Source: a virus
Lineage: Duplodnaviria > Heunggongvirae > Uroviricota > Caudoviricetes
IMG/VR virus record: IMGVR_UViG_2529293141_000015
Span: 1,630 to 65,629 of that record
Direction: 5' to 3' (one strand)
Length of the DNA stretch: 64,000 nt
Position numbers: made by a program
Shown: positions 17,301 to 20,300 of the stretch, piece after piece
Layout: each line of letters starts with the position of its first letter
Numbering within the stretch: position 1 is the stretch's first letter

Positions 17301-20300
17301 TCGATACCTTCACGCCAATATCAGCCAGCGAACATTGTACGGCAGATGATAACTCAATGGTGCTTTTCTCGAGCGTGGTCGGCACATGAATAAACCGCTC
17401 CGAATCGTCCGGGTACACAATCTGGTCAAATGGGTGTTCGTAGGTGACCAGGTCAAAAAAGCTATCATCGGTCGAAGTTGTGACTGTAACAGCCTCCTGA
17501 CGGCCTCCACGCTCCAGGCGGATGATAATATTTTCCTGCAACACATCGTCATCCCTGAAAGCTTTGCTACGTGATTCGAACAAATGAATATGGCGGATTG
17601 CTGCCCGCTCAAGTATGAAATTACGGAACGGACGGTAATACGGTCCGTTGCAGAAACTACGTGGGATTATGGCCACTATCTGCCCGCCAGGTGCAACCTC
17701 ACCTACAGCCAGTGCAACAAAGGCGGAATACAGATTTACCGTCTCGATACCGACAGTGCGAAGAGCCTGCCGGTGGGCTGACTGGCTATTGATCTTCTTG
17801 TAAGGCGGATTAAGTATTGCATGGGTATAACCTCGATCCTGTAGACCTTCGGCGGTTGCCAGCTCAATATAATCCCCTTCGATGATGCGGGGCGTCACTC
17901 TCCTGTACCCGGTTAAGTGCTTCGCAAGGTGACCACACAGCTTTTTGTCGATTTCGTAGGCTGTTGCCTCGACAGACTCAAAGCCAAACTCGCCAACCAG
18001 CCAACGGTCGAGGAAGGCGCAAGACAGTGCGCCTAAACCAGCGCCTGCGTCCAGTAGACGGCAAGTTTTCATTGTGCTCGGTGGAAACAAGGAGGCCATA
18101 AAACGGGCCACGCCAGAAGGCGTCATGAACTGGCCGAACTCTGCTTTGTGTTTACGCGCGGTACGGGGAGACAGCTCGCGACGCACGCTGTCTGCGACGT
18201 CTAGCTTTTGAAGCATAACTAATCCTCTTTACGTGGCATGATGATGCCAACGTGCTTTTGACATCCTCCACATTCTTCAGGCGTGAAGGATGTCAAATCA
18301 CTCTGTGAGCTCAATCAAAAGTCTCATCATTCCACTGCGATTTGATGACCTTTCCGACAAACTGGCAGTTTTCGTTACACTCAATCATGTCGAATCGTGG
18401 GTTGAGCGGCTCCAGGTACGCTTTACCGCTCTCACGAATGAATCGTTTGAAGGTAAATTCATCGCCGTTCATTCGGGCCACGCAAAAATCGCCATCCTCG
18501 ATTTCCCGTTCAGGGTCAACGAGTATCAGCATACCTTCAGGGAAGCTGGGTTTACCACCCTGCGGTGCGGTCATTGAATGCCCCTTGACCTCCAGCCAGA
18601 ACGACCTGTCACTGGCTTTTGTGGTGGTGGAGATCCATTTAATCGCATCTTTTGCGGTGTACGAAATATCATCCATTGAGAATGCGCCAGCTTGTACGCA
18701 GGAGAGTAACGGATATTCGTAAGCGGGGACACGAGTTAATGGCTCTTCAATTGCGAGCGCCATTTCTGCAATAGATTTTGCCAGGCTGGGACTGAAATCT
18801 CCGACCTTTACATTCAGTATCTTAGCAAGCTGTGCTGCGTGGCTGGCATTTATGGCGTTGATGCCAGCCATTAGCTGATTAACAGCGCTTTGGGTAACAC
18901 CTAATTCATAGGCTAATGATTCCTGCGACAGGCCTAACTCTTTCTTTTTAGCGTTAAAAATACTTTTCAGACGCTTGGCGTCTTCCAGTTGCTCAGGGGT
19001 TAACGGTTTCTTTTTCATGTTCATACCATATCACCTTTGGTTATATGTAATGAAATATCTGCGGTGTTGACATTTTAATAACTGTGCGTAATGATATGGG
19101 CATTTTGAAGGAGTCAGTTATGGCGATGAAAAAAGAGACCCTGGCTGATTACGTATACAGGTTCGGCCAAAAGAAAGCCGCTAAGGACTTTGGCGTGGCG
19201 CAGAGTGCAATCAGTAAAGCGCTTCTCGTCGGACGAGAAATATACGTCAAAACCTTTGATGACGGCACAGTTGAGGCGGAAGAGGTTCGTCCGTTCCCTG
19301 CGTTCGTAAGAGGCGATGATTAATCCTGGACACACAGCCCATCGGAGGTGTGAGTGAACAGGCAAATCAAAACGGTTATGCCCGAGCAGTACTGTGATGC
19401 TGATCGGGACTGGATACAGGAGCAATTGTTACAGCTAGACCCGACCACCCGGGTAAAAATTGCAGCAGAGTACGCGAGAGTGTACCAGGAAGAGTGGGAC
19501 AAGGAGCCTGTATCGTTCAGGAAGGGCAACAGGGCAAGACGGAGCGCCAACACCCGGTTACGGGTGTATGTCCAGAAGTACGCGAGAGCCAGCCGTGGCT
19601 GGATGCTTTCGCCAGTAGCGGTACGGAAGTTTCCCCCGACACCATGATGGCGGTTAGTTGCGCTAGAGATAATTTCAAGTGCAACTAATTTCCTGAAAGG
19701 AAGCGAGGAGGGGGTAAGGGGGTGGAGTCGTTGGTAAGGCCTGTATCCCTTGGCCTAGGCCAGAAGGCAGGTACATAGGTTAGGTAGATCACTGTATAAG
19801 CGCGCGATAGTTTCTGGTGAAATAATTATCGAGCTAACTATTGAGTGATAAACTATGTCAGCAGCAACCAAATCGGCACTGATCCGTACACTGAGCACTG
19901 TACCACTGAGAACAGAGGAGCGTTACAGCTTTCTGGCTGATGTTGTAACGATCCTTGAGTCACAGGGGATGCATGTGGCAAGCAATGTCACAGTAAGAAT
20001 CGATGGCAGAAATTTCCGTGTTGATATTCTCGCAACAGCAAAAACTGGTGGGAGTGTGGCTATCGAGATCGATCGTAGCTCTCCGCGACCCCGCTCAGTC
20101 ATGAAATTGCGTGAATTGGCACGTCGTGGCACTGAAGGCTTTGTGTTGCTTCGAATGCCAAAGAAACTGACCAGTTATAGCGATGCTGGGATCGATATCA
20201 TCCCGGCGAATGGCAAGGGGGCGTCATGCTGAAAATCACCCCAAACTTTGCTCAGGAGCGCGGTTTAAACCAGCTGCGGCACCAGTGGAAACAGCATCGC

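What the first reader, a model, noticed from the sequence alone, without database searches (positions are those of the whole stretch)
18257..18297. Perfect 11-bp inverted repeat between cI and the methyltransferase gene
TTTGACATCCT ... AGGATGTCAAA with a 19-bp spacer occupies the 94-bp gap between the cI stop and the MTase start. No T-run follows on either strand, so it is not a classical terminator. It could be a protein-binding dyad or an RNA stem-loop that modulates read-through from cI into the R-M genes, analogous to controller elements in R-M systems.
Basis: seen in the sequence. Interest (0 to 1): 0.35.

Follow-up and report, generated by a model that had tools for sequence, protein, structure and literature searches.

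The report
Fused transposon ends joining cI to R-M
The inverted repeat between the phage repressor gene and the restriction-modification genes is most likely the scar of two oppositely oriented IS200/IS605 transposon right ends that fused, deleting the DNA between them and placing a promoterless R-M module behind cI; nothing shows it to be a dedicated regulatory site.

Summary
The repeat is real: TTTGACATCCT, a 19-nt spacer, then AGGATGTCAAA, at 18257-18297. A perfect 11-bp repeat alone is not rare, since 31% of shuffled windows contain one.

It belongs to a large family of about 40-nt palindromes, consensus TTGACATCCT-CCCCGyCC-TTTA-GGGCGGGG-AGGATGTCAA. Members occur across Bacteria, Archaea, plasmids and phages. 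The family model scores the window copy at 44 bits, E about 1e-9.

The stem-loop plus the 10-nt tail AGGATGTCAA is the extreme right end (RE) of IS200/IS605-family tnpB elements. The palindrome carries that tail on both strands.

Both flanks in the window are genuine RE|flank insertion junctions:
- The MTase side continues as the last 12 codons of a resolvase gene, broken just 3' of TTTAC.
- The cI side is broken just 3' of TTGAT/TTAAT.

Three further testable flanks, in sibling prophages and in a viral contig, behave the same way.

Best reading: two inverted IS copies recombined through their self-complementary RE stems. That deleted the transposon bodies and fused a truncated resolvase-M.EcoGIII-R.EcoGIII module to cI. 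The RNA hairpin (-21 kcal/mol, no U-tract) sits in the presumed cI-M-R co-transcript. A regulatory role is untested. A C-box-like operator is not supported.

The parts
18257..18297 (.). The inverted repeat as reported. The core at 18258-18296 is a 'double right end' palindrome: an RE tail on each strand around a decayed RE stem-loop.
   Evidence: Sequence. Covariance model R1 hits 18258-18296 at 44.4 bits (+) and 40.5 bits (-), E about 1e-9 and 1e-8, the only hit in the window. Family consensus.
18287..18296 (+). RE tail AGGATGTCAA, ending in the TCAA cleavage motif, of the plus-strand IS copy. It abuts the cI-side flank ATCACTCTG.
   Evidence: It is identical to the last 10 nt of tnpB elements. 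Prophages with a closely similar cI (about 97-99% identical over the shared stretch) but no hairpin read TTAAT|ATCGCTCTG and TTGAT|ATCATCCTG at this exact point.
18258..18267 (-). RE tail AGGATGTCAA of the minus-strand IS copy (reads TTGACATCCT on the plus strand). It abuts the resolvase remnant.
   Evidence: The sense strand reads GGATGTCAA|AAGCACGTTGGC. The uninterrupted resolvase genes read CTTTAC|AAGCACGTTGGC in Morganella and P. syringae.
18268..18286 (.). Centre of the palindrome: a degenerate copy of the RE stem-loop (family consensus CCCCGyCC-TTYA-GGGCGGGG). Strand orientation is ambiguous: the G.U pairs favour the minus strand and the TTCA loop favours the plus strand.
   Evidence: It is very close to the Oxalobacter copy L037, CCACTTTCTTCAGGGCGTGG.
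18217..18256 (-). Remnant of a serine-recombinase (resolvase) gene, last 12 codons (K)HVGIIMPRKED*. It contains the native MTase Shine-Dalgarno sequence (AAGAGGA).
   Evidence: It is closely similar (about 90% identical by eye) to the sequence upstream of the 89%-identical MTase in Morganella (...ILYKHVGVIMPREED*). It is homologous to the end of the intact resolvase gene in P. syringae (...TLYKHVGVITPRQ*).
18234..18249 (.). Second small hairpin, TGGCAT-GATG-ATGCCA, inside the resolvase remnant.
   Evidence: Morganella has GGCGTCATCATGCCG at this position, where the hairpin is weaker.
18311..19024 (-). cI repressor gene (HTH_3 + Peptidase_S24). Its stop codon lies 13 nt from the repeat.
16747..18216 (-). 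M.EcoGIII-type (PstI/BsuBI family) methyltransferase. No promoter-like site lies between it and cI.
   Evidence: PMC6602927.
15797..16750 (-). R.EcoGIII-type endonuclease. Its start overlaps the MTase stop (ATGA).
15757..15778 (-). Intrinsic-terminator-like hairpin with a T-run just after the REase gene. Probable end of the cI-M-R transcription unit.

Best explanation
The repeat is a recombination scar made of two IS200/IS605-family right ends (RE) in opposite orientation, sharing one stem-loop.

Proposed history:
1. One IS copy had inserted on the plus strand 3' of TTGAT/TTAAT, 13 nt beyond the cI stop.
2. A second copy had inserted on the minus strand 3' of TTTAC inside a resolvase gene that precedes the M-R pair.
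3. The RE stem-loop is self-complementary, so the two inverted REs offer about 20 bp of direct homology. Recombination or template switching across it removed both transposon bodies, both left ends and everything between them.
4. This left flank|TTGACATCCT-stem-loop-AGGATGTCAA|flank.

Consequence: the truncated resolvase-M-R module lost its own upstream region and now lies directly behind cI. It is presumably transcribed from the cI promoters through the hairpin, up to the terminator after the REase gene.

The element carries no transposase, no tnpB, no left end and no cognate guide tetranucleotide, so it is most likely inert as a transposon end. In RNA it is a stable intercistronic stem-loop that could at most affect pausing or mRNA stability.

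Shown: family membership, identity with RE termini, and TAM-adjacent breakpoints on both flanks.
Inferred: the two-copy deletion mechanism, co-transcription with cI, and inertness.
For: Family:
Most are exactly 40 nt, with an unselected consensus centre CCCCGyCC-TTTA-GGGCGGGG.
- The upper stem covaries: 7 of 8 variable pairs show double changes, 96% of cells are paired, and 0 of 500 shuffles reach the observed score.
- There are 1811 plasmid records with a match covering at least 80% of the consensus query.

Link to IS200/IS605:
- In Ralstonia phages Heva, Hyacinthe and Dimitile and in Bacillus phage Dartukuta, tnpB ends ...GIPAL* with its stop codon in the loop.
- In the three Ralstonia phages the copies stop being identical right after ...GGGGAGGA(A/T)GTCAA.
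- In viral contigs the 14-mer GGGGAGGATGTCAA is usually preceded by ..GGAAT-CCCCGTCC-TTTA-GGGC. TnpB lies upstream in 42 of 96 one-sided hits, against 1 of 12 palindromes.
- Lower-arm complementarity is bimodal (0-5 or 9-10 of 10), which indicates a discrete event.
- TCAA is among the RE cleavage motifs, and TTAT among the LE cleavage motifs, detected most often in IS605/IS1341 elements (PMC9956272; concepts in PMC10055086).

Junctions. All 5 testable palindrome flanks lie immediately 3' of a TAM-like motif in the uninterrupted homologue:
- resolvase: CTTTAC|AAGCACG;
- cI side: TTGAT|ATC and TTAAT|ATC;
- E. coli G8 prophage: GTTAC|AGCCATCA;
- STEC1585: TTTTAT|(A)ATCACTAA;
- L009: TTTAT|ATGCGCG.

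Consistent with two RE-side flanks:
- No TAM or other conservation lies next to 90 palindromes.
- Neighbouring genes are unrelated housekeeping genes.
- ORFs often run into the palindrome and stop there.

Palindromes and canonical REs with the same stem occur in the same contig (L245, L269). No promoter was found between cI and M. The R-M is active in lysogens.
Against: - No ancestor with the two full-length IS copies, and no reciprocal product, was found. The deletion mechanism is inferred from the product only.
- The window has no TnpA or TnpB.
- The centre of the window copy is decayed (9-nt loop). Its strand orientation is ambiguous.
- The only filled/shorter pair found (Klebsiella fec plasmids) differs by 46 nt, bounded by GTC repeats. 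It does not resolve how palindromes arise.
- The frequency of such palindromes (about 10% of RE-tail hits in viral contigs) is high for a two-copy accident. This may point to an additional, possibly enzyme-driven, route.
- Near-perfect conservation in about 100 Stx phage records says nothing either way, because those phages are nearly identical.
Confidence: 0.72

Rival explanations
1. An RNA stem-loop kept by selection to tune expression within the cI-M-R operon. It could act as a partial attenuator or pause site, an RNase III/E processing site, or a 3' stabiliser of the cI message, whatever its origin.
For: - The sense RNA folds into a 16-bp stem of -21.3 kcal/mol.
- It lies in the only route of transcription into M-R.
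- Three cI-prophage variants keep a hairpin at this position in front of different downstream DNA.
Against: - The hairpin is explained without selection, as an IS joint.
- The STEC1585 copy has uncompensated substitutions.
- Prophages with a closely similar cI lack it altogether.
- The M-R pair functions elsewhere without it.
- No U-tract follows, and methylation is active in lysogens.
Confidence: 0.15
2. A still-active recombination site. The double RE is recognised in single-stranded DNA by a Y1 transposase (TnpA) supplied in trans, or recombines repeatedly with other RE copies. This would allow precise exchange of the cassette behind cI.
For: - Three different downstream segments start exactly after GTCAA in prophages with the same cI type.
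- A Klebsiella plasmid is rearranged exactly at the palindrome end.
- The TCAA cleavage motif is present on both strands.
Against: - The guide tetranucleotide 5' of the stem is TCCT, not the GAAT seen in canonical REs.
- In the folded palindrome the cleavage motif is base-paired.
- No TnpA is encoded in the window.
- The three variants can equally be three separate two-copy deletions, each with its own TAM.
Confidence: 0.1
3. A protein-binding dyad: an operator for a controller (C) protein, for cI, or for the MTase.
For: It is a perfect dyad located upstream of an R-M operon.
Against: - No C-protein-like gene is adjacent: the neighbours are cI, the MTase and the REase.
- The arms do not recur elsewhere in the window.
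- Spacing varies (19, 20 or 27 nt).
- The same arms occur beside unrelated genes in many phyla.
- The M-R pair lacks the dyad elsewhere.
Confidence: 0.02
4. A miniature non-autonomous transposon (PATE/MITE-like) that inserted here as a 40-48-nt unit.
For: - Single-hairpin mini-elements with an LE-type leader and an RE tail do exist after TTTAT (L269; a similar element in 933W).
- Palindromes are dispersed and low-copy.
Against: - The two flanks are not contiguous in any relative.
- Each flank is next to its own TAM in a different source sequence.
- No TAM is conserved 5' of 90 palindromes.
Confidence: 0.05

Closest known systems
Right end (RE) of IS200/IS605-family elements (IS608 paradigm; tnpB/IS1341-type). 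It also forms the last stem-loop of the TnpB omega-RNA scaffold.
   Same: It has the same stem-loop consensus and the same 10-nt tail ending in the TCAA cleavage motif. Its flanks start exactly after the tail and lie 3' of TTAC/TTAT/TTGAT-type target motifs in uninterrupted homologues (PMC9956272, PMC10055086).
   Different: The tail is present on both strands. The GAAT guide 5' of the stem is replaced by the complement of the tail. There is no left end, no tnpA or tnpB, and no omega-RNA scaffold upstream.
PATEs: palindrome-associated transposable elements, the protein-less derivatives of IS200/IS605.
   Same: It is a non-coding derivative of the same transposon family, found in bacteria and archaea.
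   Different: PATEs keep a left end and a right end on one strand and are mobilisable in trans (PMC10055086). This element has two right ends on opposite strands and no TAM at its border.
Solo LTRs and other recombination scars of mobile elements.
   Same: It is what remains after recombination between two copies of a terminal repeat removed the element body.
   Different: Here the recombining repeat is a self-complementary hairpin of two inverted copies, so the scar is a palindrome and the deletion also removes DNA between the copies.
REP/BIME sequences and their RAYT (TnpA-like) transposases.
   Same: They are short extragenic palindromes evolutionarily tied to IS200/IS605 Y1 transposases. 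They can act as mRNA stabilisers in operons (established knowledge).
   Different: The sequence differs (no GTAG head). It occurs in one or a few copies per replicon, is not clustered, and spans many phyla.
C-box/controller-protein operators of type II R-M systems.
   Same: Both are inverted repeats upstream of R-M genes.
   Different: There is no C gene. The repeat is not associated with this R-M pair in other hosts. The repeat family is unrelated to R-M systems.
The lambda cI-rexA-rexB immunity operon.
   Same: Defence genes sit directly behind cI, end at a terminator before PL, and are presumably expressed in the lysogen from the repressor promoters.
   Different: The cargo is a PstI-type R-M pair, and the join carries a transposon-end scar.

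Membership tests
40-nt 'double right end' palindrome family (defined here) | Arms TTGACATCCT / AGGATGTCAA around a roughly 20-nt self-complementary centre | tested here: met
   The arms match exactly. Covariance model R1 scores 44.4 bits, E about 1e-9, the only hit in the window. The centre is a decayed version: 4-5 of 8 upper pairs and a 9-nt loop. Caveat: the model was built from sequences selected for exactly these arms, so most of the score follows by construction.
IS200/IS605 right end | Subterminal stem-loop followed by about 10 nt ending in the cleavage motif (TCAA) at the element boundary | tested here: met
   The tail is identical to that of tnpB elements. Homology with relatives ends exactly after TCAA on both sides.
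IS200/IS605 right end | The flank begins 3' of a target motif (TAM) in the uninterrupted target | tested here: met
   TTTAC|AAGCACG in resolvase genes. TTGAT|ATC and TTAAT|ATC downstream of cI.
IS200/IS605 right end | Guide tetranucleotide (GAAT in this subfamily) immediately 5' of the stem | tested here: not met
   The window has TCCT on the plus strand and UCCU on the minus strand. Canonical REs have GGAAT.
IS200/IS605 insertion sequence (complete or PATE) | A left end with its own hairpin on the same strand, and tnpA and/or tnpB or an omega-RNA scaffold | tested here: not met
   No TnpB-like ORF in the window at E<=10. No LE-like sequence in the window by blastn with two LE-region queries from L009 and L275. 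Rfam finds nothing.
R-M controller (C-box) element | An adjacent small HTH C-protein gene, and co-occurrence of the repeat with the R-M genes | tested here: not met
   Only cI, M and R lie nearby. Homologous M-R pairs in Morganella, Aeromonas and P. syringae have no such repeat.
Intrinsic (Rho-independent) terminator | A G+C-rich stem followed by a U-run | tested here: not met
   No T-run on either strand. The scan does not report it.
Known RNA families (Rfam 15) | A score at or above the gathering threshold | tested here: not met
   Only sub-threshold miRNA noise in the window. No hit at the palindromes of 12 other loci.
Functional intercistronic RNA regulator | RNA ends or altered expression dependent on the hairpin | not testable with these tools
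   This needs Term-seq, RACE or reporter assays in lysogens.

The most novel reading that the evidence does not exclude
'Double right end' palindromes may be a general and so far unrecognised signature, and possibly an engine, of IS200/IS605-mediated genome remodelling across Bacteria and Archaea. Inverted copies collapse through their self-complementary RE hairpins and weld together whatever lay beyond the two right ends. The joint stays recombinogenic, so cassettes can be swapped again at the same phosphodiester bond. Here that process would have created a compact cI-R-M immunity/defence operon in the Stx2a phage lineage that includes the O104:H4 outbreak phage.
Probability: 0.3. Interest if true: 0.65.

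Novelty: new variant of a known kind. Interest (0 to 1): 0.45.

Why it matters
For this phage, it explains how a promoterless PstI-type R-M pair (EcoGIII) came to sit directly behind cI. EcoGIII is known to restrict other lambdoid phages and to affect the expression of about 1,900 host genes. It also explains why an apparent 'regulatory' dyad is there. This redirects experiments from a search for a controller protein to simple read-through and mRNA-stability tests.

More generally, a 40-nt sequence signature would let one find and date IS200/IS605-mediated deletions and fusions in any prokaryotic genome, plasmid or phage, even after the transposons themselves are gone. It also cautions against reading such palindromes as terminators, operators or small RNAs.

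Tried and rejected
1. Promoter reading (TTGACA in each arm). No usable -10 on either strand, and the scan found nothing.
2. Terminator reading. No U-run.
3. Rfam. Nothing in the window or at 12 consensus-like palindromes.
4. Protein-coding motif. The palindromes translate to DILPALKGGEDV on both strands, but the open frames around them are short and unrelated. The resemblance comes from the TnpB C-terminus ...GIPAL*.
5. A gene family associated with the palindromes. All-against-all BLASTP and Pfam scans of neighbouring ORFs gave only unrelated housekeeping genes.
6. Conserved flanks or a larger element. Information content was about 0 over +/-80 nt.
7. My own intermediate hypothesis that the 39-nt leader and first MTase codons derive from the tnpB-start/left-end segment seen next to the palindrome in L009. 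This was refuted: the leader is the 3' end of a resolvase gene that precedes the same M-R pair in Morganella and P. syringae.
8. A filled/empty site in Klebsiella fec plasmids. The shorter allele differs by 46 nt bounded by GTC repeats and is probably a slippage deletion, so it is not informative about insertion.
9. Full-text searches for the arm sequences. They returned only unrelated primers. A search for orphan or solo omega-RNA remnants found nothing relevant.
10. 16S rRNA or lambda boxB resemblances of sub-strings. These were judged coincidental and were not tested.
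Full report
**1. Observation**

The window carries TTTGACATCCT at 18257-18267 and AGGATGTCAAA at 18287-18297, 19 nt apart. They lie in the 94-nt gap between two minus-strand genes.
- cI: ORF 18311-19024, HTH_3 + Peptidase_S24.
- A 489-aa Eco57I-family methyltransferase: ORF 16747-18216.
- Next comes a BsuBI/PstI-family endonuclease, 15797-16750. Its start overlaps the MTase stop.
- A terminator-like hairpin with a T-run follows the endonuclease at 15778-15757.

The region is 100% identical to Stx2a-converting phages of the O104:H4 type (P13374, phi191, PA2, PA8, VT2phi_272). It is present in 147 of 5426 complete E. coli genomes. The R-M pair is the published PstI-like EcoGIII system (CTGCAG), reported active in lysogens (PMC6602927).

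A perfect 11-bp IR with a 3-30 nt spacer is not rare by itself: 31% of dinucleotide shuffles of the window have one. On the sense (minus) strand, however, the stem extends to 16 pairs through G.U pairs. The hairpin energy is -21.3 kcal/mol, against -17.1 for the plus strand.

No T-run follows and no promoter-like site lies in the gap. Rfam has nothing.

**2. A large family**

Two collection scans for the arms found many copies.
- Viral contigs, pattern TTTGACATCCT-N12-28-AGGATGTCAAA: 19 contigs.

The genome hits come from Proteobacteria, Actinobacteria, Cyanobacteria, Chlamydiae, Firmicutes, Chloroflexi, haloarchaea and methanogens.

Most copies are exactly 40 nt. Their centre was not part of the pattern, yet it has a strong consensus: CCCCGyCC-TTTA-GGGCGGGG. 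Across 64 distinct 40-mers:
- 96% of cells are paired;
- 7 of the 8 variable pairs show double (compensatory) changes;
- no shuffle or slid control approaches this.

The strand with the U-rich loop is the one that tolerates the mismatches as G.U.

On plasmids, 1811 records carry a match covering at least 80% of the consensus query. Most are Klebsiella conjugative plasmids.

A covariance model of the family finds the window copy at 44.4 bits (+) and 40.5 bits (-), E about 1e-9. Nothing else in the 64 kb scores. Because the model was trained on sequences selected for these exact arms, this score mainly confirms the arms plus a partly matching centre.

**3. What the family is not**

- Flanks carry no information over +/-80 nt.
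- Neighbouring ORFs share no family. They include dnaK, gyrA and 6PGD-type genes.
- The palindromes are not embedded in long ORFs, although ORFs often run into them and end at their TGA or at the loop TAG.

So the family is not a cis-element of a particular gene, and in particular not of R-M systems.

**4. Link to IS200/IS605**

A consensus query hit the 3' end of tnpB genes in Ralstonia phages Heva, Hyacinthe and Dimitile and in Bacillus phage Dartukuta.
- There the ORF ends ...GIPAL*, with the stop codon in the loop.
- The DNA reads ..GGAAT-CCCCGyyC-TTTA-GGGCGGGG-AGGA(A/T)GTCAA.
- The three Ralstonia copies cease to be identical immediately after this tail.

The stem-loop plus 10-nt tail is therefore the extreme right end (RE) of these elements. 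TCAA is one of the RE cleavage motifs detected most often in IS605/IS1341 elements, and TTAT one of the most frequent LE cleavage motifs (PMC9956272). The roles of TAM, TEM and guide sequences are described in PMC10055086. The omega/reRNA spans the tnpB 3' end plus the RE (PMC8612924).

A scan of viral contigs for GGGGAGGATGTCAA gave 134 hits in two discrete classes.
- One-sided canonical REs: 0-5 of 10 lower-arm positions are complementary. Of the 96 with enough flank, 42 have a TnpB-like ORF upstream.
- Full palindromes: 9-10 of 10 positions are complementary. Of the 12 with enough flank, 1 has TnpB upstream.
- There are no intermediates.

Palindromes and canonical REs with the same stem co-occur in single contigs (L245, L269). 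The palindrome is therefore an RE whose tail is present on both strands, produced by a discrete event rather than by drift.

**5. The flanks tell the history**

Prophages with a closely similar cI (about 97-99% identical over the shared stretch) but no hairpin (L002, L003) diverge from the window exactly at the cI-side end of the palindrome. They read TTAAT|ATCGCTCTG and TTGAT|ATCATCCTG, where the window reads GTCAA|ATCACTCTG.

On the other side I first thought the 39-nt leader was transposon-derived. Homologues of the MTase corrected this.
- The same 489-aa + 317-aa pair occurs in Morganella, Aeromonas and P. syringae (82-89% identity) without any palindrome.
- In Morganella and P. syringae it follows a resolvase gene or its remnant.
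- The window leader is the last 12 codons of that gene: (K)HVGIIMPRKED*, against ...ILYKHVGVIMPREED* and ...TLYKHVGVITPRQ*.
- The break falls exactly 3' of CTTTAC.

Three more flanks could be tested.
- The G8/PhiR12_3 prophage variant breaks at GTTAC|AGCCATCA. In it the MTase and two-thirds of the REase are replaced.
- The STEC1585 variant, where a 245-aa ORF follows, breaks at TTTTAT|(A)ATCACTAA relative to prophage RM10740.
- The palindrome in viral contig L009 breaks at TTTAT|ATGCGCG, inside the 5' end of an antisense tnpB that is 90% identical to an E. coli element next to ybhB.

Five of five flanks therefore begin immediately 3' of TTAC/TTAT/TTGAT-type motifs. These are the known target motifs of this transposon family.

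Each arm of the palindrome is thus a genuine RE|flank insertion junction, on opposite strands. This also explains why no TAM is conserved next to palindromes: the TAM stays on the left-end side, which is gone.

**6. Mechanism proposed**

Two copies sat in inverted orientation with their bodies facing each other. The RE stem-loop is self-complementary, so it reads almost the same on both strands and offers about 20 bp of direct homology. A crossover or template switch within it yields flankQ'|R'-S-R|flankP. Both bodies, both left ends and the DNA between them are lost.

In the window this removed everything between 13 nt after the cI stop and the last 12 codons of the resolvase gene. The steps shown are the identity of the parts and the TAM-adjacent breakpoints. 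The two-copy deletion itself is inferred.

The centre of the window copy looks like the inverted centre of the G8 copy ('flip/flop'). That is expected if the crossover point within the stem varies.

**7. Consequence and function**

In P. syringae the MTase starts 9 nt after the resolvase gene, so the pair is probably normally co-transcribed with it. In the phage the resolvase promoter region is gone and no promoter-like site lies in the gap.

M and R must therefore be reached from the cI promoters through the hairpin, ending at the terminator after the REase gene. This arrangement is analogous to lambda cI-rexAB.

Because methylation and restriction are active in lysogens, the hairpin is not an efficient terminator. 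It could still influence pausing, processing or cI mRNA 3' stability. I give that 0.15, because of three observations.
- Sibling prophages lack it.
- One sibling carries an eroded copy.
- The M-R pair works elsewhere without it.

As a transposon end it lacks the GAAT guide, a left end and any transposase, so it is most likely inert. Repeated exchange at exactly this joint, in three prophage variants and one Klebsiella plasmid, leaves open a residual recombinogenic role.

**8. Comparison and novelty**

The parts are known: IS200/IS605 RE, TAM/TEM logic, PATEs, and REP/RAYT as relatives. The double-RE palindrome as a class, and its use as a marker of IS-mediated fusions, did not turn up in the literature I could search. 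That search is limited to open-access text.

I therefore rate it a new variant of a known kind. Interest is moderate: the original 'controller-like' idea is not supported, but the real explanation is concrete, testable and general.

Noticed in passing
L015 6622-6662 and L016 3927-3967 (viral contigs), compared with window 18268-18286: Two close relatives of this phage have CTGCAG, the EcoGIII/PstI recognition site, in the hairpin loop (GCCTGCAGAAT). The window has CTGAAG at that position. A self-site immediately upstream of the MTase gene might matter for methylation-dependent effects or for restriction on entry into a new host.
   Followed up: no
window 18234-18249: A second small hairpin, TGGCAT-GATG-ATGCCA, lies between the palindrome and the MTase Shine-Dalgarno sequence. 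The plus-strand terminator scan flags it. It lies inside the resolvase remnant and is weaker in the Morganella homologue.
   Followed up: partly
L150 (phage 933W) about 1485-1532; L269 2925-2970: There are single-hairpin elements of about 46 nt. They have a left-end-type leader (CAGATGCGCCGTAAAA or ..GCGCTGTAAAA), the RE stem-loop and the AGGATGTCAA tail, without tnpB. In L269 the element follows TTTAT. These may be minimal IS200/IS605 derivatives in which one hairpin serves as both ends. The 933W copy is not present in this window.
   Followed up: partly
E. coli chromosomes: ydcO, ykiE, yedK and yfeD loci: RE-like stem-loop plus tail sequences (31 nt, 87% identical to the consensus) occur in 4811 of 5426 complete E. 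coli genomes at a few fixed loci. From memory, the ydcO locus is next to the K-12 insQ/tnpB gene; this was not checked here.
   Followed up: no
L270, L271, L272 and L143 (Klebsiella/E. coli plasmids, upstream of fecI): A consensus-perfect palindrome sits upstream of fecI in more than 1000 plasmids. Two plasmids are 46 nt shorter, with GTC direct repeats at the borders (probably a hairpin-promoted slippage deletion). One plasmid is rearranged exactly at the palindrome end, next to a truncated TrbC-family gene.
   Followed up: partly
L009 667-792; L275 2500-2625: The left end of an E. coli InsQ/TnpB element carries, on the strand opposite to tnpB, a Shine-Dalgarno sequence plus a conserved 24-26-codon ORF (MQ(K/T)TVSRKTASFP..RGFPE.F*) that spans the left-end hairpin. 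It is unknown whether the ORF is expressed.
   Followed up: no
window 16747-16750: The MTase stop and the REase start overlap (ATGA). The same overlap appears in all homologous M-R pairs seen (Morganella, Aeromonas, P. syringae), which suggests translational coupling.
   Followed up: no
L278 (Aeromonas veronii) 1-5420: The same M-R pair sits immediately downstream of Zot- and DUF2523-type genes, that is, inside a filamentous-prophage-like region. This is a third kind of mobile carrier for the module.
   Followed up: no
L108 2234-2327 and L026 2216-2291 (genome contigs): In two pattern hits the palindrome extends far into the flanks: about 90-nt and 75-nt perfect or near-perfect palindromes with non-consensus centres. 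They could be foldback inverted duplications or assembly artefacts.
   Followed up: no
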